Part shown: positions 5,701 to 43,813 of the stretch, in pieces
Numbering within the stretch: the first letter of the stretch is position 1
How the letters are laid out: each line of letters opens with the position of its first letter
DNA from: a virus
Lineage: Duplodnaviria > Heunggongvirae > Uroviricota > Caudoviricetes
DNA length: 51,450 bases
Reading direction: 5' to 3' (one strand)
IMG/VR virus record: IMGVR_UViG_2617271050_000002
Translations under genes and position numbers: made by a program
The notes under the pieces: generated by a model
The model's input: the letters and a program-made list of their open reading frames with translations, nothing else
Databases searched by the model: none
What the model was told of the DNA's origin: nothing

Positions 5701-5866
5701 GCTGACCTCATTTCCCCTTAACGCTGGGGTAGCGGAACTGTTTGCTGAGAACACCGTGCGGTGTGTTGATGCAAACAAGATTAGCCATGACTAACATATC
5801 GGTCAAGTGATTTTGTATGCTATAGCTAACATAATTGATGTGGTAAAAGATAACTCATTGATGATG

Positions 5867-6274
5867 TTATCTTTTATTTGTCCGCTGACGGGCTTTTAGT
5901 AATTCTTCAAAGAGTTTATTGAAGTTTTTTACTCGAGCTCGCATTTCGGCGAGCTGGGTATCCTGTTCTGATTCTGGCAGTGCATTAAACAGCTCAAGGA
6001 GCTCTAGTTCTTTGGGGGATAAGGCAACTGGCTTCTCAACAGGTGGTGTTGGTTGCTTGTCTTCATCGCCAAATAGAATCCATGTTGGTGAGCATTGCAA
6101 TACTTTGCTGAGGGCAAAAAGGTTCTTCCCTGTAGGTTCACTATCACCCCGTTCCCATTGTGATACAGACACATGGGAGATTTTCAGGGCTTTAGCAAGA
6201 GACCTTTGGGTGTGTTTGAGGTTTTTCCGACGATACCTGATGCGTTCGCCGATAGTTAAATTTTTTGTTTCCAT
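5867..6274 (-). CDS. dicA: Prophage repressor DicA (cI-like HTH_XRE, 135 aa, no peptidase S24 domain)
   Basis: N-terminal XRE helix-turn-helix (TQRSLAKALKISHVSVSQWERG); 135 aa; divergent from a Cro-like gene. Matches recalled DicA. Confidence 0.85.
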   Translation of the reverse strand: METKNLTIGERIRYRRKNLKHTQRSLAKALKISHVSVSQWERGDSEPTGKNLFALSKVLQCSPTWILFGDEDKQPTPPVEKPVALSPKELELLELFNALPESEQDTQLAEMRARVKNFNKLFEELLKARQRTNKR

Positions 6275-6357
6275 AGTTAGCTAATGCTAAATCGTATTGA
6301 CTATGTTTTTGTTAACATCTATCTTGTTAGTTATGACTAACAATAAAGGTGTTTTAA
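6275..6357. promoter_or_regulatory. Divergent dicA/dicC promoter-operator region
   Basis: 83-bp intergenic region between divergent repressor genes. Contains a palindromic TAGTTAGCTAA (6274-6284) and a near-palindromic TTGTTAGTTATGACTAACAA (6325-6344). Confidence 0.5.
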
Positions 6358-6588
6358 ATGCTTAAAACTGACGCTCTTTTGTATTTCGGTTCAAAAACAA
6401 AACTTGCACAAGCAGCAGGTATTCGTTTGGCTTCGCTTTATAGCTGGAAAGGGGATTTAGTTCCCGAAGGTCGCGCGATGCGTCTACAGGAGGCATCTGG
6501 CGGGGAGCTTCAGTATGATCCCAAAGTTTATGATGAATATCGTAAGACGAAGCGGGCGGGGCGGTTGAACAATGAAAATCACTCCTGA
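6358..6588 (+). CDS. dicC: Cro-like regulator DicC (76 aa)
   Basis: 76-aa ORF divergent from dicA; matches recalled DicC sequence. Confidence 0.8.
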   Translation: MLKTDALLYFGSKTKLAQAAGIRLASLYSWKGDLVPEGRAMRLQEASGGELQYDPKVYDEYRKTKRAGRLNNENHS

Positions 6589-7093
6589 ACAGGCTCGTGA
6601 GGCTCTGGATGCCTGGATATGTCGACCAGGAATGACACAGGAGCAGGCGACGATATTAATCACTGAAGCATTCTGGGCTTTGAAAGAGCGCCCGAACATC
6701 GATGTTCAGCGTGTCACATATGAAGGTGGCGCGATTGATCAGCGAGCGCTTGGCGTTAATCGAGTGAAGATATTTGAACGCTGGAAGGCTATCGACACCA
6801 GGGATAAGCGTGAAAAGTTCACGGCGCTAGTGCCTGCAATTATGGAGGCTATCCGGATTAATGATTTCAGGTTGTATCGTGAAATTACTGACGGAAAAAG
6901 CATCACGTGCATGATCGCCGGGTTAAACAAAGAATATGGCGATGTGGTGGAGTCCGGACTGCTTTTTGCTGATCCTGCCGTAGTGGATCGTGAAACTGAC
7001 GAACTTATAGAAAAAGCAATTGCTTTCAAACTTGCGTATCGACAGCAATACCAACAAAAAGCTGGATGGAATTATGAGCCTTCTTTTTGCTGA
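6572..7093 (+). CDS. Hypothetical protein in the cII-equivalent position
   Basis: 173-aa ORF overlapping the dicC stop by 17 nt and the replication gene start by 20 nt. No motif recognised. Confidence 0.5.
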   Translation: MKITPEQAREALDAWICRPGMTQEQATILITEAFWALKERPNIDVQRVTYEGGAIDQRALGVNRVKIFERWKAIDTRDKREKFTALVPAIMEAIRINDFRLYREITDGKSITCMIAGLNKEYGDVVESGLLFADPAVVDRETDELIEKAIAFKLAYRQQYQQKAGWNYEPSFC

Positions 7094-8039
7094 ACGCCCA
7101 CTGGTTATAAACACGCAGCTGGCAATGAAAATTGGCTTAAACGAAGCCATTGTTTTGCAACAACTGCACTACTGGTTGAGAGATACCAACTCCGGCATGG
7201 AATGTGATGGTGTTCGCTGGATTTATAACACAACGGAACAATGGCTGGAACAGTTCCCATTCTGGTCAGAGTCAACGTTAAAGCGCGCGTTTGCAAGTCT
7301 GAAAACGCTGGGGCTTTTGCGTTGTGAAAAGCTCAATAAATCAAAGCGCGATATGACCAATTTCTACACGATCAACTATGGGAGCGAGCTTTTAGATGGT
7401 GGCAAATTGAGCGAATCCATCGGTTCAAAATGCGCCGCTCCATCAGGTCAAAATGACACGATGGAAGAGGTCAAAATGAAACGCTCCATTGGTTCAAAAC
7501 GACCCAATGTCATCGGGTCAAAATGGCCTGATGATCTTACAGAGAATACAACAGAGATTACTACAGAGAATAAAAACACTTTTCGTCCGGAAGCTTCGCA
7601 ACCGGACCCGCAGACGACTGAACAGGATTTTTTAACCCGGAACTCCGACGCGGTTGTGTTTAGTGCGAAAAAACGCCAGTGGGGTAGCAGGGAGGATTTG
7701 GCGTGTGCGCAGTGGATCTGGGGGCGGATCGTGGGTCTCTACGAACAGGCAGCCAGTGATGATGGCGAGATCATGCGACCAAAAGAGCCTAACTGGACTG
7801 CCTGGGCCAATGACGTGCGCACAATGCGGATGCTGGATGGCAGAAGCCACAGACAAATTTGCGAAATGTTTGGTCGGGTTCAGCGAGATCCATTCTGGGT
7901 AAAAAACATCATGAGCCCGTCAAAGCTCCGCGAAAAATGGGACGAACTGGTCATCCGCCTGGGACGTTCACCTGTACAGCGTTGTGTTAATCATATTTCT
8001 GAACCGGATACAGAAATTCCGCCTGGTTTCAGAGGATAA
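7074..8039 (+). CDS. Replication initiation protein (lambda O-like replisome organiser)
   Basis: Track ORF 7020..8039; the internal ATG at 7074 (MSLLFAERPL...) is the likely start. Winged-helix-like N-terminus. The gene contains an iteron array whose translation gives the IGSK-type peptide repeats. Confidence 0.7.
   Translation: MSLLFAERPLVINTQLAMKIGLNEAIVLQQLHYWLRDTNSGMECDGVRWIYNTTEQWLEQFPFWSESTLKRAFASLKTLGLLRCEKLNKSKRDMTNFYTINYGSELLDGGKLSESIGSKCAAPSGQNDTMEEVKMKRSIGSKRPNVIGSKWPDDLTENTTEITTENKNTFRPEASQPDPQTTEQDFLTRNSDAVVFSAKKRQWGSREDLACAQWIWGRIVGLYEQAASDDGEIMRPKEPNWTAWANDVRTMRMLDGRSHRQICEMFGRVQRDPFWVKNIMSPSKLREKWDELVIRLGRSPVQRCVNHISEPDTEIPPGFRG
7415..7525 (+). repeat. Origin iterons: five direct repeats of GGT(C/T)AAAA(T/C)G at ~23-bp spacing
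   Basis: Repeat cores end at 7432, 7455, 7478, 7501 and 7525; followed by an A/T-rich stretch at ~7530-7590. Architecture is like lambda ori inside the O gene. Confidence 0.6.
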
Positions 8040-8079
8040 GTGTTGATTTCAGGTCATGAGGTAATTTTAAGGGGGACTT

Positions 8080-8502
8080 GTGGCAAAAGTTTTTACACAA
8101 GAAGAGCGGGAAAAAATTAAATGGCAGGTGGTGGAACTCGTGCGCCAGAGCGGCCGTGAGACGTTACGGCAACTGGAAGCTAAAACAGGTGCGACTAGAT
8201 ATCTGATGAGCGTTCTTGCCAGAGAGCTGGTAGCCAGTGGCGATGTATACAACTCCGGCTACGGGTTATTCCCCTCTGAACAGGCGCGTAAGGACTGGCA
8301 AAACGCCCGCAAAAAACTCTCGAGGGCAAAGGTGAAGAAACCTGCTGTGGTTGATCCGGACCTTATCTGGTCATCACCTGACGGAGAAATACGTCGCTAC
8401 GACAGTCGCCTAAACATAATCTGTCGCGAGTGCCGGAAGAGCGAAGTTATGCAGCGCATACTGGCTTTCTATCAGGGTAATTTTCAGGACGTGGCGCAGT
8501 GA
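8080..8502 (+). CDS. Hypothetical protein (GTG start)
   Basis: 140-aa ORF with an AAGGGGG RBS; its stop overlaps the start of the methyltransferase-like ORF (ATGA). Confidence 0.5.
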   Translation: MAKVFTQEEREKIKWQVVELVRQSGRETLRQLEAKTGATRYLMSVLARELVASGDVYNSGYGLFPSEQARKDWQNARKKLSRAKVKKPAVVDPDLIWSSPDGEIRRYDSRLNIICRECRKSEVMQRILAFYQGNFQDVAQ

Positions 8503-8855
8503 GTGCACCGGCAACCATTCTTGATATGTGCTGTGGCAGCCGCATGTTCTGGTTCGATAAGTCTGACGAACGGGCGATATTCAGCGATATCAGAAAAGAA
8601 GGATACACATTACGCAATGGGAGACGCTTGATTATCAGCCCTGACATTATCGCAGATTTTCGTGCATTATCATTTGCAGACGCATCTTTTTCGATGGTTG
8701 TATTAGACCCTCCGCATCTTGAGAGTGTTGGTGATAACGCCTGGATGGGAAAGAAATATGGACGGCTGAATAAAGATGCCTGGCGTGATGATTCGCGACA
8801 GAGATTTAAAGAAGCCTTTCGGGTGTTGAGGCCGCACGGCGTTCTGATTTTTTAA
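8499..8855 (+). CDS. SAM-dependent DNA methyltransferase-like protein, short (118 aa), possibly truncated
   Basis: Motif I-like ILDMCCGSRMF and a DPPH motif of the (D/N)PP(Y/F/W/H) type. Ends at an in-frame TAA after only ~50 aa beyond DPPH; 29 further sense codons follow in the same frame. Confidence 0.5.
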   Translation: MSAPATILDMCCGSRMFWFDKSDERAIFSDIRKEGYTLRNGRRLIISPDIIADFRALSFADASFSMVVLDPPHLESVGDNAWMGKKYGRLNKDAWRDDSRQRFKEAFRVLRPHGVLIF

Positions 8856-9244: not shown

Positions 9245-10774
9245 TTATTTATTGGTGAGTACTACGTTCCATGGCAGGAGTTCGCCAACTCGGTTGGAAG
9301 GCCATTCCGGCAGTACGCTCAGAATATGGCGCAGATACGCTTCCGGATCGATACCGTTCAGACGGCAGGTGCCGATCAGCCCGTACAACAGTGCTCCACG
9401 CTCGCCGCCGTGATCGCTGCCAAAGAACATAAAGTTTTTCTTTCCGAGACAGACTGCACGAAGCGCTCTTTCCGCAGCATTATTATCCGCCTCCGCCAGA
9501 CCGTCATCACTGTAATAACAGAGGGCATCCCACTGATTCAGTACATAGCTGAACGCTTCGCCCAGTCTGGATTTTTTCGACAGCGTACCATTCTTCTCCA
9601 CCATCCATTCATGCAGCGACGTCAGTAACACTTTGCTTCGCTGCTGCCTGACGGCAAGACGCTCTGACTCCGGTAATCCCCGTATTTCATCCTCGATGGC
9701 GTACAGTTCACTGATTCGCTTCAGGGCTTCTTCTGCCGTCGCACTTTTGCTGCTGATGTATACATCGTGGATTTTTCGCCGGGCATGGGCCCAGCACGCA
9801 ACTTCTGTCAGTGCACCACCTTCACGTTCTGCACTGAACAACCTGTCGTAACCTGTGAACGCATCCGCCTGCAGGATACCCCGGAAGGGGCGGAGGTGTT
9901 GCTCCGGGTGTTTCCCCTGCCGGTTCGGCGAGTACGCGAACCAGACCGCTGGAGGAGATGACGAACCCACATTGCGATCATCCCGGACATACGTCCAGAT
10001 ACGCCCTGTTTTCGCCTTTTTCTGACCCGGTGCCAGTACCTTTACCGGTGTGTCATCAGTGTGAACCTTGCGGGTGTTCATTACATAACGGTACAGGGCA
10101 TCATTCACCGGTGTCATTAACTGGCAGCACGCGTCAACCCAGTTGGAGAGTAAGGCCCGGCTCAGTTCGACACCCTGGCGGGCAAAGATTTCACTCTGAC
10201 GATACAGTGGCAGATGTTCGCAGTATTTTCCCGTTAACACGCGGGCAAGTAATCCGGGGCCCGCGATACCACGCTCTACCGGGCGGGACGGCGCCGGTGC
10301 TTCAACAATACAGTCACATTTTGTACAGGCTTTTTTTACCCGTTCTGTGCGGATCANNNNNNNNNNTGGCTCCAGGCGGTGTATTTCACGGGGAAGGTGT
10401 GCCGGTAACGGACGACGATGGCGCGACTGTCGCAACTGGCGGGGAACCTGAGGATCGTCTTCCCGCCCACTGTAACGATCGCTGTCCTGTTCACGTTGTT
10501 TCAGCAGAGCCTCAGCCAGTTCAACTTCACGACGCAGTTTTTCAGAACGGGTACCGAACAGCATCCGGCGCAGTTTTTCTATCTGAGCCCGCAGATGTTC
10601 TATTTCCCGTTCATCTTCTTCGATCTTTTCTTCGACACGTGTCAGTGCAGAGCGCAGGAAGGCTTCCGTCTCTTCAACCAGACTCAGTTGCTGGTCTTTC
10701 TGACGGAGGGCTTCAGCCTGCTCAGAGAGCAACCTTTCCAGCTCTGCGATGCGAATGAGGTATTTCTGACTCAT
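9245..10774 (-). CDS. tnpC: IS66-family transposase TnpC
   Basis: 509-aa ORF with N-terminal coiled-coil/leucine-zipper region typical of IS66 TnpC; interrupted by a run of 10 N at 10357-10366. Confidence 0.85.
   Translation of the reverse strand: MSQKYLIRIAELERLLSEQAEALRQKDQQLSLVEETEAFLRSALTRVEEKIEEDEREIEHLRAQIEKLRRMLFGTRSEKLRREVELAEALLKQREQDSDRYSGREDDPQVPRQLRQSRHRRPLPAHLPREIHRLEPXXXXIRTERVKKACTKCDCIVEAPAPSRPVERGIAGPGLLARVLTGKYCEHLPLYRQSEIFARQGVELSRALLSNWVDACCQLMTPVNDALYRYVMNTRKVHTDDTPVKVLAPGQKKAKTGRIWTYVRDDRNVGSSSPPAVWFAYSPNRQGKHPEQHLRPFRGILQADAFTGYDRLFSAEREGGALTEVACWAHARRKIHDVYISSKSATAEEALKRISELYAIEDEIRGLPESERLAVRQQRSKVLLTSLHEWMVEKNGTLSKKSRLGEAFSYVLNQWDALCYYSDDGLAEADNNAAERALRAVCLGKKNFMFFGSDHGGERGALLYGLIGTCRLNGIDPEAYLRHILSVLPEWPSNRVGELLPWNVVLTNK
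10357..10366. other. Assembly gap (10 N)
   Basis: Literal N run in the sequence, inside the IS66 transposase gene. Confidence 0.95.

Positions 10775-25644: not shown

Positions 25645-29325
<3,681 letters not shown>

Positions 29326-40411: not shown

Positions 40412-43813
<3,402 letters not shown>

What the first reader, a model, noticed from the sequence alone, without database searches (positions are those of the whole stretch)
7415..7590. Origin-like iteron array embedded in the replication gene
Five GGT(C/T)AAAA(T/C)G repeats with ends spaced 23, 23, 23 and 24 bp apart, followed by an A/T-rich segment, sit inside the O-like ORF. This is the lambda ori architecture in a gene that is not lambda O by sequence. 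The same repeats generate the IGSK peptide repeats in the protein.
Basis: seen in the sequence. Interest (0 to 1): 0.45.

Follow-up and report, generated by a model that had tools for sequence, protein, structure and literature searches.

The report
Phage replication origin inside initiator gene
The repeats are real and are almost certainly the replication origin of a lambda-like E. coli prophage, sitting inside the gene for the protein that binds them. That layout is well known, but here it uses a large, unnamed family of DNA-binding domains.

Summary
Five abutting 23-bp repeats (7418-7533, core G[GT]TCAAAA[TC]G, spacing 23/23/23/24) are followed by three A/T-rich 12-bp repeats (7538-7575) and an inverted repeat (7585-7607). 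All lie in codons 115-178 of the replication gene 7074-8039 of a lambdoid prophage, 100% identical to Escherichia phage PhiR42_1 over window 6300-8600.

Four lines of evidence support an origin:
- The same three-part layout recurs at the same place in homologous genes from Enterobacteria to Staphylococcus, with different repeat sequences.
- Synonymous-codon identity rises from about 0.45 to 0.77-0.96 over codons 107-179 only.
- The 23-bp period is out of frame.
- One residue of the N-terminal winged-helix domain (S67) co-varies with base 3 of the repeat half-site (Asp-G, small or aliphatic-T, Lys/Arg-A or C, His/Asn-C). This was found in one set of loci and replicated in a second.

The C-terminal half is homologous to lambda O (E 1e-26); only the N-domain is unrelated.

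No P, DnaC or DnaB gene follows. The protein ends in a copy of the host DnaT tail. No replication or binding experiment exists for this family. Verdict: a lambda-type origin, a new member of a known kind, of moderate interest.

The parts
6297..6325 (+). pR-like promoter (TTGACT-17-TATCTT) between the cI-like and cro-like genes. It would drive transcription through cro, the cII/YdaT-like gene and the rep gene with its origin.
   Evidence: Consensus scan. It is the only promoter-like site in 5800-8600. Function is inferred by analogy with lambda.
7074..8039 (+). Replication initiator gene (321 aa, 'O-like'). It has an N-terminal winged-helix domain, an origin-encoding linker, a lambda-O-like C-domain and a DnaT-like tail.
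   Evidence: The ATG at 7074 is the start annotated in PhiR42_1 and HannyBb. It matches phrog_391 'replication initiation O-like' at 1.3e-91. There is no Pfam or NCBIfam family hit.
7074..7394 (+). N-terminal domain (aa 1-107), a winged helix-turn-helix. It is the proposed iteron-binding module.
   Evidence: AlphaFold2 model: mean pLDDT 84, pTM 0.76, with H54-60, H66-78 and a beta-hairpin at 82-85/97-100. The best PDB fold matches are the staphylococcal plasmid RepA N-domain and its Rep-iteron complex (4pql, 4pt7, 5kbj), but they are weak (E 3e-3, TM about 0.5). The family has 10,269 50%-identity representatives at E<=1e-3.
7272..7274 (+). Codon of Ser67, the second residue of the predicted recognition helix. 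This position co-varies with base 3 of the iteron half-site across the family.
   Evidence: Mutual information is 1.29 bits, against 0.71 for the next best column. The result was replicated on independent IMG/VR loci.
7418..7440 (.). Iteron 1: CATCGGTTCAAAATGCGCCGCTC
7441..7463 (.). Iteron 2: CATCAGGTCAAAATGACACGATG. Outer arms CATC/GATG and core GGTCAAAATGACA.
7464..7486 (.). Iteron 3: GAAGAGGTCAAAATGAAACGCTC
7487..7509 (.). Iteron 4: CATTGGTTCAAAACGACCCAATG, the best palindrome (9-nt arms, 89% complementary).
   Evidence: (pair I6).
7511..7533 (.). Iteron 5: CATCGGGTCAAAATGGCCTGATG
   Evidence: (pair I1).
7538..7575 (+). Three 12-bp repeats ([TA]ACAGAGAWTAC) that are A/T-rich and purine-rich on the top strand. 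This is the proposed DNA-unwinding element.
   Evidence: family D2. It holds the least stable 40-mer of the gene. Two or more CA[GA]AGA copies at 11-13-nt spacing occur in 176 of 218 unique homologous loci, against 4 of 215 upstream controls.
7585..7607 (.). Inverted repeat GTCCGGAAGC-TTC-GCAACCGGAC. It is the counterpart of the palindrome to the right of lambda's A/T-rich tract.
   Evidence: The hairpin is weak on its own (dG -7.1, z -1.4). Across the family it reads GTCnGG[TTGC/TTTC/TTCC]-NNN-[GCAA/GAAA/GGAA]CCnGAC, with compensatory inner pairs. In L010, L011 and L320 it has the lambda-like form.
7392..7610 (.). Block under synonymous (DNA-level) constraint, codons 107-179. This is the functional extent of the origin.
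   Evidence: Synonymous-codon identity is 0.77-0.96 here, against 0.40-0.57 upstream and 0.35-0.59 downstream, in 13 homologous genes. The block is nearly identical to mEp460_4F5 although the gene overall is 78% identical.
7512..7955 (+). C-terminal domain homologous to that of lambda O (aa 147-294).
   Evidence: BLASTP against lambda O gives 34% identity over 148 aa, E 1e-26.
7977..8036 (+). C-terminal 20-residue tail QRCVNHISEPDTEIPPGFRG, which copies the flexible C-terminal tail of host DnaT.
   Evidence: 15 of 20 residues are identical to E. coli DnaT 160-179 (PDB 2ru8, 9zbt_D; a weak NCBIfam hit). This tail type is never followed by a P- or DnaC-like gene in 24 loci.

Best explanation
Window 7392-7610 is the replication origin of this lambdoid prophage, embedded in the linker-coding part of its own initiator gene (7074-8039). 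It has three parts:
- five abutting 23-bp iterons (7418-7533), each an imperfect palindrome around GGTCA-AAA-TGnCC;
- three A/T-rich 12-bp repeats (7538-7575);
- a GTCCGG...CCGGAC inverted repeat (7585-7607).

Proposed mechanism:
1. The initiator is made from the rightward early transcript.
2. Its N-terminal winged-helix domain binds the iterons. Ser67, at the start of the recognition helix, reads the T at position 3 of each GGTCA half-site.
3. The resulting multimeric complex, helped by transcription through the region, opens the adjacent 12-mer repeats.
4. The lambda-O-like C-domain, together with a tail copied from host DnaT, brings in the host helicase-loading machinery. The phage encodes no P, DnaC or DnaB equivalent.

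What is shown: the repeat architecture, its conservation, the DNA-level constraint, the protein-DNA co-variation and the domain homologies. What is inferred: binding, unwinding, helicase recruitment and origin activity.
For: 1. The repeats are non-random and are the strongest periodic signal in the window.

2. They are conserved in homologous genes. In unbiased scans of whole 5-6 kb loci, roughly 55 of 76 usable GTDB loci have their top periodicity at period 22-24, located +305 to +430 nt from the gene start. The repeat sequences differ between lineages.

3. Lambda's annotated iterons start at +349 nt of O with spacing 20/24/23, and are followed by an A/T-rich tract and a palindrome. Here the array starts at +345.

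4. Synonymous-codon identity is 0.77-0.96 over codons 107-179, against 0.40-0.57 and 0.35-0.59 in the flanks. Amino-acid identity is lower inside the block than in the N-domain.

5. The 23-bp period is not a multiple of 3, so the units are read in all three frames.

6. The residue at position 67 of the N-domain co-varies with half-site base 3.
- Discovery set: Asp-G 21/21, Ser/Ala/Met-T 19/19, Lys/Arg-A, His-C.
- Independent IMG/VR set: Asp-G 42/42; Ser/Ala/Met/Val/Ile/Pro-T 39/39; Asn-C 2/2; Arg and Lys mostly C or A.
- Counted by 85%-identity cluster: 39/42, 13/13 and 3/3. Lys<->Asp switches occur between domains that are 94-95% identical.

7. The AlphaFold2 model places residue 67 at the start of the recognition helix of a winged HTH. 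The nearest solved folds include the plasmid RepA-iteron complexes.

8. The 12-mer block is the least stable DNA of the gene and recurs across the family.

9. The C-domain is homologous to that of lambda O. A pR-like promoter lies upstream.

10. The same module is present in isolated or induced phages (PhiR42_1, HannyBb, mEp460), so it belongs to working replicons.

Background: lambdoid origins lie in the middle of O and consist of palindromic iterons plus an A/T-rich tract (PMC7466680).
Against: No experiment on this family was found, whether replication assay, footprint or marker-frequency analysis.

In this particular phage the right half-sites are degenerate (TGCGC, TGACA, TGAAA, CGACC, TGGCC), so dimer binding per iteron is uncertain.

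The A/T-rich tract is only 70% A+T, which puts it in the top 1.5% of 40-mers in the window rather than at the extreme.

The inverted repeat is not significant on its own (z -1.4).

The mosaic junction between N- and C-modules lies just to the right of this block. Part of its high nucleotide conservation could therefore reflect recombinational spread rather than purifying selection.

The Lys/Arg class of the co-variation is not one-to-one (A, C and some T).

The helicase-recruitment step rests only on the absence of a loader gene and on a 20-residue similarity to DnaT. The binding partner of that tail is not stated in the papers read.
Confidence: 0.85

Rival explanations
1. The repeats are initiator-binding sites, but their main role is regulatory rather than initiation. 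They could serve for autoregulation, copy-number control or handcuffing, titration or incompatibility, or as the target of an exclusion system. The true start site would lie elsewhere.
For: Iterons in plasmids serve both initiation and control (general knowledge; reviews listed). The co-variation shows binding specificity, not origin firing. No replication data exist.
Against: The array is always flanked on the same side by a low-stability 12-mer repeat block and an inverted repeat. This is the same arrangement as the experimentally defined lambda origin. No second iteron cluster exists in the window.
Confidence: 0.07
2. The conserved block is mainly a recombination linker. It would be a conserved boundary sequence that lets N-terminal and C-terminal modules of phage replication genes be shuffled, and its conservation would reflect frequent horizontal exchange rather than origin function.
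For: The same N-domain and repeat block are joined to lambda-O-like or Phg_2220_C C-domains. tblastn matches of L014-L018 stop at residues 154-185, just after the block. The block is nearly identical between genes that are about 78% identical overall.
Against: This does not explain the 23-bp periodicity, the palindromes, or the change of repeat sequence in step with a single residue of the N-domain. It also does not explain the conservation of the layout from Proteobacteria to Firmicutes, where nucleotide sequences differ. It can be an additional consequence but not the sole explanation.
Confidence: 0.05
3. The repeats are selected at the protein level. On this view they encode a repetitive flexible linker (the IGSK-type peptide repeats) and have no DNA function.
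For: The peptide motif SIGSK/VIGSK recurs three times and is conserved in close homologues.
Against: The 23-bp period is out of frame, so two of the five units encode unrelated peptides. Synonymous sites are the most conserved part of the gene exactly here, while amino-acid identity is lower than in the N-domain. The repeat sequence co-varies with the DNA-binding domain.
Confidence: 0.03

Closest known systems
Phage lambda ori-lambda / O protein (and Stx-phage variants with 6 iterons)
   Same: The origin lies in the middle of the initiator gene. Palindromic iterons with a central A4 tract begin at +349 nt in lambda and +345 nt here; unit 4 here shares lambda's TCAAAACG. Lambda's spacing is 20/24/23 bp. 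An A/T-rich, purine-skewed tract follows, then an inverted repeat. The gene lies in the pR transcript. [quoted passage not shown]
   Different: The N-terminal DNA-binding domain is unrelated by sequence: no PF04492 hit and hhalign probability 0.1%. There are five directly abutting 23-bp units instead of four 18-bp ones with spacers. The A/T-rich tract is built of 12-bp repeats. No P gene follows. The C-terminus carries a DnaT-like tail in place of lambda O's own.
Bacillus phage SPP1 oriL / gp38 (replisome organiser)
   Same: Direct repeats plus an A/T-rich unwinding element lie inside the gene of the origin-binding protein that binds them (PMC6316719).
   Different: There is no detectable sequence homology of gp38 to this N-domain (hhalign probability 0.3%). 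The repeat sequences differ. SPP1 encodes its own loader gp39 and helicase gp40.
RepA_N-type plasmid initiators of Gram-positive bacteria (PDB 4pql, 4pt7, 5kbj)
   Same: These are the nearest solved folds to the predicted N-domain, a winged helix that binds iterons. From my own knowledge, not tested here, their origin also lies within the repA coding region.
   Different: The structural similarity is weak (E 3e-3, TM about 0.5, 17-19% identity) and there is no sequence-level relationship. They are plasmid rather than phage replicons.
Iteron plasmids with repeated 13-mers in the unwinding element (for example RK2/TrfA) and oriC 13-mers
   Same: A cluster of initiator-binding iterons lies next to an A/T-rich element that is itself made of short repeats. 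This comparison rests on established knowledge; the review PMC4980987 was listed but not read in detail.
   Different: In those systems the origin lies outside the rep gene and DnaA boxes take part. Nothing here shows that the 12-mers are bound as single strands.
E. coli DnaT (primosomal protein I)
   Same: The last 20 residues are 75% identical to DnaT's flexible C-terminal tail (the tail is described in PMC5778457).
   Different: Only the tail is shared. The NCBIfam DnaT model scores 16 bits against a cut-off of 201. The database annotation of relatives as 'Primosomal protein I' is therefore misleading.

Membership tests
Lambda-type origin embedded in the initiator gene | Cluster of three or more repeated initiator-binding sites (iterons) with dyad symmetry in the middle of the initiator gene | tested here: met
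   Five 23-bp units lie at 7418-7533, in codons 115-153 of 321. Dyad symmetry is clear in units 2, 4 and 5 and weak in units 1 and 3. Across the family the core is the palindrome GGnCA-NNN-TGnCC.
Lambda-type origin embedded in the initiator gene | A/T-rich, easily melted tract directly on the promoter-distal side of the iterons | tested here: met
   7537-7576 is the least stable 40-mer of the gene (70% A+T, dG -44.3 against a mean of -55.5). It recurs across the family.
Lambda-type origin embedded in the initiator gene | Inverted repeat to the right of the A/T-rich tract | tested here: met
   The repeat is GTCCGGAAGC-TTC-GCAACCGGAC at 7585-7607. It is weak alone but is conserved with compensatory changes in homologues. 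Some homologues carry the lambda-like GAATTC...GAATCC form.
Lambda-type origin embedded in the initiator gene | The initiator's N-terminal domain binds the iterons specifically | not testable with these tools
   Binding cannot be measured here. Indirect support is strong: residue 67 co-varies with half-site base 3 in two independent sets of loci, and residue 67 sits on the predicted recognition helix.
Lambda-type origin embedded in the initiator gene | The segment supports initiator-dependent replication | not testable with these tools
   This needs a cloning or replication assay, or marker-frequency sequencing. No published test was found.
Lambda-type origin embedded in the initiator gene | Selection acts on the DNA itself, not only on the encoded peptide | tested here: met
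   Synonymous-codon identity is 0.77-0.96 in codons 107-179, against about 0.45 elsewhere. The period is out of frame.
Lambda O protein family | N-terminal Phage_rep_O domain (Pfam PF04492) | tested here: not met
   Lambda O hits PF04492 at 5.7e-36. The window protein has no hit even at E<=10. hhalign of the N-domain profile against lambda O residues 1-121 gives probability 0.1%.
Lambda O protein family | C-terminal domain homologous to that of lambda O | tested here: met
   BLASTP gives 34% identity over 148 aa, E 1e-26.
Lambda O protein family | Partner gene P (PF06992) immediately downstream | tested here: not met
   The next gene is DUF977/LygF (8080-8502), followed by a methyltransferase fragment. 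BLASTP of downstream ORFs finds no P or DnaC relative. Relatives L008, L015 and L038 do have a P homologue.
DnaT (primosomal protein I) | Full-length match to the DnaT family model | tested here: not met
   NCBIfam NF002770 scores 16.2 bits against a cut-off of 201, and only residues 320-339 of the long ORF match. Only the 20-residue tail is shared.
SPP1 gp38-type replisome organiser | Sequence homology of the origin-binding domain | tested here: not met
   hhalign probability is 0.3%. There is no Pfam Phage_rep_org_N hit.

The most novel reading that the evidence does not exclude
This origin may represent a very large, unnamed class of phage and prophage initiators (over 10,000 50%-identity clusters, from Enterobacteria to Firmicutes) with three properties not described in the literature I could search.
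- A near one-residue/one-base recognition code: position 67 of a winged helix (Asp, small or aliphatic, Lys/Arg, His/Asn) sets base 3 of the iteron half-site (G, T, A or C, C). Origin specificity could then be predicted and re-engineered from sequence.
- A 12-bp CAGAGA-type repeat in the unwinding element that stays constant while the iterons change. This suggests a conserved single-strand or host contact.
- Interchangeable C-terminal tails that select the helicase-loading route. In this phage the tail mimics host DnaT and replaces a phage-encoded loader, which would tie a phage origin to the host restart primosome.
Probability: 0.4. Interest if true: 0.6.

Novelty: new member of a known kind. 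Interest (0 to 1): 0.4.

Why it matters
The origin itself is what a phage biologist would expect in an O-like gene, so on its own it is ordinary.

Its value lies in three points.
- It gives an unannotated feature (the ori) and a function (iteron-binding winged helix) to a protein family that most databases call 'hypothetical', 'DnaD-like' or, wrongly, 'primosomal protein I'. The family has no Pfam or NCBIfam model, although it is common in E. coli prophages and in Staphylococcus, Bacillus and Pseudomonas phages.
- The residue-67/base-3 co-variation offers a directly testable recognition rule. It could be used to predict replication compatibility and immunity between co-resident prophages, and to build orthogonal replicons.
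- The link between C-terminal tail type and the presence or absence of a loader gene points to how 'initiator-only' phages capture the host helicase. It also suggests a role for the DnaT tail, whose binding partner is not given in the papers I read.

Tried and rejected
- **Family libraries.** Pfam (E<=10) and NCBIfam gave no family for the N-domain. Only PHROGs names it ('replication initiation O-like').
- **Remote homology.** hhalign of the N-domain profile found nothing against the lambda O N-domain or SPP1 gp38.
- **Literature.** A full-text search for the iteron and 12-mer sequences returned only unrelated papers. The Stx-phage 'Eru' replication-region paper contains no iteron or origin analysis and no matching module. 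A search for 'DnaT-like' phage proteins found nothing relevant. The 2017 review and the 2026 preprimosome structure paper do not say what the DnaT C-terminal tail binds, so the tail's partner remains open.
- **Inverted repeat.** Folding the inverted repeat alone is not significant (z -1.4). I rely on its conservation across the family instead.
- **Failed or uninformative runs.** The first IMG/VR scan returned only near-identical E. coli contigs and was useless as a test set; I re-ran it with divergent first sequences. One Python scan timed out and was rewritten.
- **Downstream Pantoea proteins.** I considered that the 435-484-aa proteins downstream in Pantoea loci might be DnaB-type helicases. 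Pfam shows a ParB-HTH domain instead.
- **Other binding protein.** I considered that the repeats might bind the downstream small wHTH protein (DUF977). I rejected this because the repeats co-vary with the rep N-domain and occur with many different downstream genes.
Full report
**Context**

The window is a lambdoid E. coli prophage. Positions 6300-8600 are 100% identical to Escherichia phage PhiR42_1 (from ECOR13). They are 97% identical to phages HannyBb and mEp460_ev081.

The gene order around the finding is as follows:
- a cI-like repressor (5867-6274, minus strand);
- a pR-like promoter (6297-6325);
- a Cro/DicC-like gene (6358-6588);
- a CII/YdaT-like gene (6572-7093);
- the replication gene (ATG 7074 to 8039, 321 aa);
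- a DUF977/LygF gene (8080-8502);
- a truncated methyltransferase;
- an IS66-family element.

No P, DnaC or DnaB gene follows the replication gene.

**The observation**

The repeats exist as described. G[GT]TCAAAA[TC]G occurs five times in 51,450 bp, all in this array, with spacing 23, 23, 23 and 24. The expectation is 0.77, and 0 of 100 shuffles reach five. The repeat finder and TRF reproduce the period. The array is the strongest periodic signal in the whole window.

Read in 23-bp units (7418-7440, 7441-7463, 7464-7486, 7487-7509, 7511-7533), each is an imperfect palindrome. The clearest is unit 4, CATTGGTTC-AAAAC-GACCCAATG.

Directly to the right lie three 12-bp repeats (7538-7575), which form the least stable 40-mer of the gene. 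Next comes an inverted repeat, GTCCGGAAGC-TTC-GCAACCGGAC (7585-7607).

Because 23 is not a multiple of 3, units 1, 4 and 5 encode SIGSKC, SIGSKR and VIGSKW. Units 2 and 3 encode PSGQND and EEVKMK.

**Is it a DNA element or a peptide repeat?**

I compared 13 homologous genes codon by codon.
- Synonymous-codon identity is 0.40-0.57 across the well-conserved N-domain (amino-acid identity 0.6-0.87).
- It jumps to 0.77-0.96 over codons 107-179, where amino-acid identity is only 0.5-0.77.
- It falls back to 0.35-0.59 afterwards.

This is the signature of a functional DNA element overlapping a coding region. It delimits the element to about 7392-7610.

**Conservation in relatives**

The test fails to refute.
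- The protein has thousands of homologues.
- The N-domain alone matches 10,269 50%-identity cluster representatives at E<=1e-3.
- It is found in 139 phage records, including temperate Staphylococcus, Bacillus, Listeria, Pseudomonas, Erwinia and Klebsiella phages.

I ran unbiased scans of whole 5-6 kb loci from one genome per species. In roughly 55 of 76 usable loci the top periodicity is 22-24 bp, at +305 to +430 nt from the gene start.

The repeat sequence differs between lineages: GGTCAAAATGACC, GGACAATTTGTCC, GGGCAAATTGCCC, GTGCAAATTGCAC and GGATCAAAATGATCC. It keeps the form GGnCA-NNN-TGnCC.

The 12-bp CAGAGA-type repeats follow in 176 of 218 unique loci, against 4 of 215 upstream controls. 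A GTCnGG...CCnGAC inverted repeat, with compensatory inner pairs, follows those.

**Who binds the repeats?**

Across the first set of loci, one alignment column of the N-domain stands out. It is Ser67 of this protein, in the motif FPFWSE-S-TLKR. It carries 1.29 bits of mutual information with base 3 of the half-site, against 0.71 for the next best column.
- Asp goes with G in 21 of 21 loci.
- Ser, Ala or Met go with T in 19 of 19.
- Lys or Arg go with A.
- His goes with C.

I then fetched 160 further loci from IMG/VR as a test set.
- Asp goes with G in 42 of 42.
- Ser, Ala, Met, Val, Ile or Pro go with T in 39 of 39.
- Asn goes with C in 2 of 2.
- Arg and Lys go mostly with C or A.

I also counted by 85%-identity cluster. 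Small or aliphatic residues with T give 39 of 42, Asp with G 13 of 13, and His or Asn with C 3 of 3. Domains that are 94-95% identical differ by Lys against Asp together with the matching iteron change.

The pairings are chemically sensible for direct read-out, which is my inference:
- Asp could contact the cytosine of a G:C pair.
- Arg, Lys, His or Asn could contact the guanine of a C:G pair.
- Aliphatic side chains could contact the thymine methyl group.

An AlphaFold2 model (pLDDT 84, pTM 0.76) shows a winged helix-turn-helix, with residue 67 as the second residue of the recognition helix H66-78. The nearest solved folds, though weak, include the staphylococcal plasmid RepA N-domain and its complex with iteron DNA.

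This is strong indirect evidence that the N-domain reads these repeats. Direct binding was not, and could not be, tested here.

**Relation to lambda**

Lambda's annotated iterons begin at +349 nt of O, with spacing 20/24/23. They have the core TCCCTCAAAACGAGGGA and are followed by an A/T-rich tract and the palindrome GTCAGAGAATTC...GAATCCTCTGAC. Here the array begins at +345. Unit 4 shares the central TCAAAACG.

Residues 147-294 are homologous to the lambda O C-domain (34% identity, E 1e-26). So the gene is not lambda O only in its N-terminal third: there is no PF04492 hit and hhalign probability is 0.1%.

The literature describes exactly this layout for lambdoid phages (PMC7466680) and for SPP1 oriL inside gene 38 (PMC6316719). 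SPP1 gp38 is not detectably homologous to this protein.

**Modularity and helicase recruitment (inference)**

The same N-domain and origin block are fused to either a lambda-O-like C-domain or a Phg_2220_C domain. The extreme C-terminal tail tracks the next gene.
- Tails ending ...HWNSPEAWENTL precede a lambda P homologue. This holds for L008 with an O-like C-domain and for L015 with Phg_2220_C.
- Tails ...GFSEQDYG..CNW or ...YDPSYWD precede a DnaC/IstB-like ATPase.
- The [IV]PxGFRG tail, present here and in about 23 other loci, is never followed by either (0 of 24).

The [IV]PxGFRG tail is 15 of 20 identical to the flexible C-terminal tail of host DnaT (PMC5778457).

The simplest reading is that this phage has an initiator-only module and uses a mimic of the DnaT tail to engage the host helicase-loading system. 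The tail's partner is not established in the papers I could read. This step is a hypothesis.

**Rivals**

- A purely peptide-level repeat is contradicted by the frame shifts and the synonymous constraint.
- A recombination-linker role is plausible as a side effect, because the mosaic junction lies just to the right. It cannot explain the periodicity, the palindromes or the co-variation.
- A purely regulatory role for the iterons cannot be excluded without experiments. It is less likely, given the constant association with an unwinding element and an inverted repeat arranged as in lambda.

**Verdict**

It is a lambda-type origin embedded in its initiator gene. That makes it a new member of a known kind, belonging to a large unnamed initiator family. 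Interest is moderate. The origin itself is expected. The recognition rule, the conserved 12-mers and the DnaT-tail mimic are the parts worth following up.

Noticed in passing
window 7977-8036 (last 20 codons of the rep gene); loci L002-L042: The initiator ends in QRCVNHISEPDTEIPPGFRG, which is 15/20 identical to the flexible C-terminal tail of host DnaT. In 24 related loci with this [IV]PxGFRG tail, no P- or DnaC-like gene follows. Other tail types go with a lambda P homologue or a DnaC-like ATPase, independently of the C-domain family.
   Followed up: partly
window 7538-7575; loci L004-L324, about +384 to +530 nt of each rep gene: The 12-bp CAGAGA-type repeats in the A/T-rich element stay nearly constant from E. 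coli to Staphylococcus and Clostridia, while the iterons change. This suggests a conserved contact, with the initiator on single strands or with a host factor, rather than mere A/T-richness.
   Followed up: partly
Protein family of window 7074-7394 (P0244, P0247, P0248 and others): The N-domain family has no Pfam or NCBIfam model, yet it has 10,269 50%-identity representatives at E<=1e-3. Many 400-880-aa members match the N-domain in two separate stretches, which may mean two copies of the domain.
   Followed up: no
window 9245-10774 (minus strand) and 8499-8855: An IS66-family transposase ORF with a run of masked N inside lies just downstream of a truncated SAM-methyltransferase ORF. The element is also present in the PhiR42_1 record.
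   Followed up: no
window about 2496; 26369-26410; 43339-43382: Other periodic signals were seen. One is a period-21 autocorrelation peak inside the exodeoxyribonuclease VIII gene. The other two are short tandem arrays (21 bp x 2 and 19 bp x 2.3).
   Followed up: no
window 6572-8039; protein P0001: Some database entries fuse the YdaT/CII-like ORF and the rep ORF into one 448-aa protein named 'toxin YdaT family protein'. The two ORFs overlap by 20 nt here (7074-7093).
   Followed up: no
records LR597641, LR595868 and LR597642 (relatives of the rep gene): Relatives of this initiator are annotated 'Primosomal protein I' in several phage records, apparently because of the 20-residue DnaT-like tail alone. 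The full DnaT model does not match (16 bits against a cut-off of 201).
   Followed up: yes
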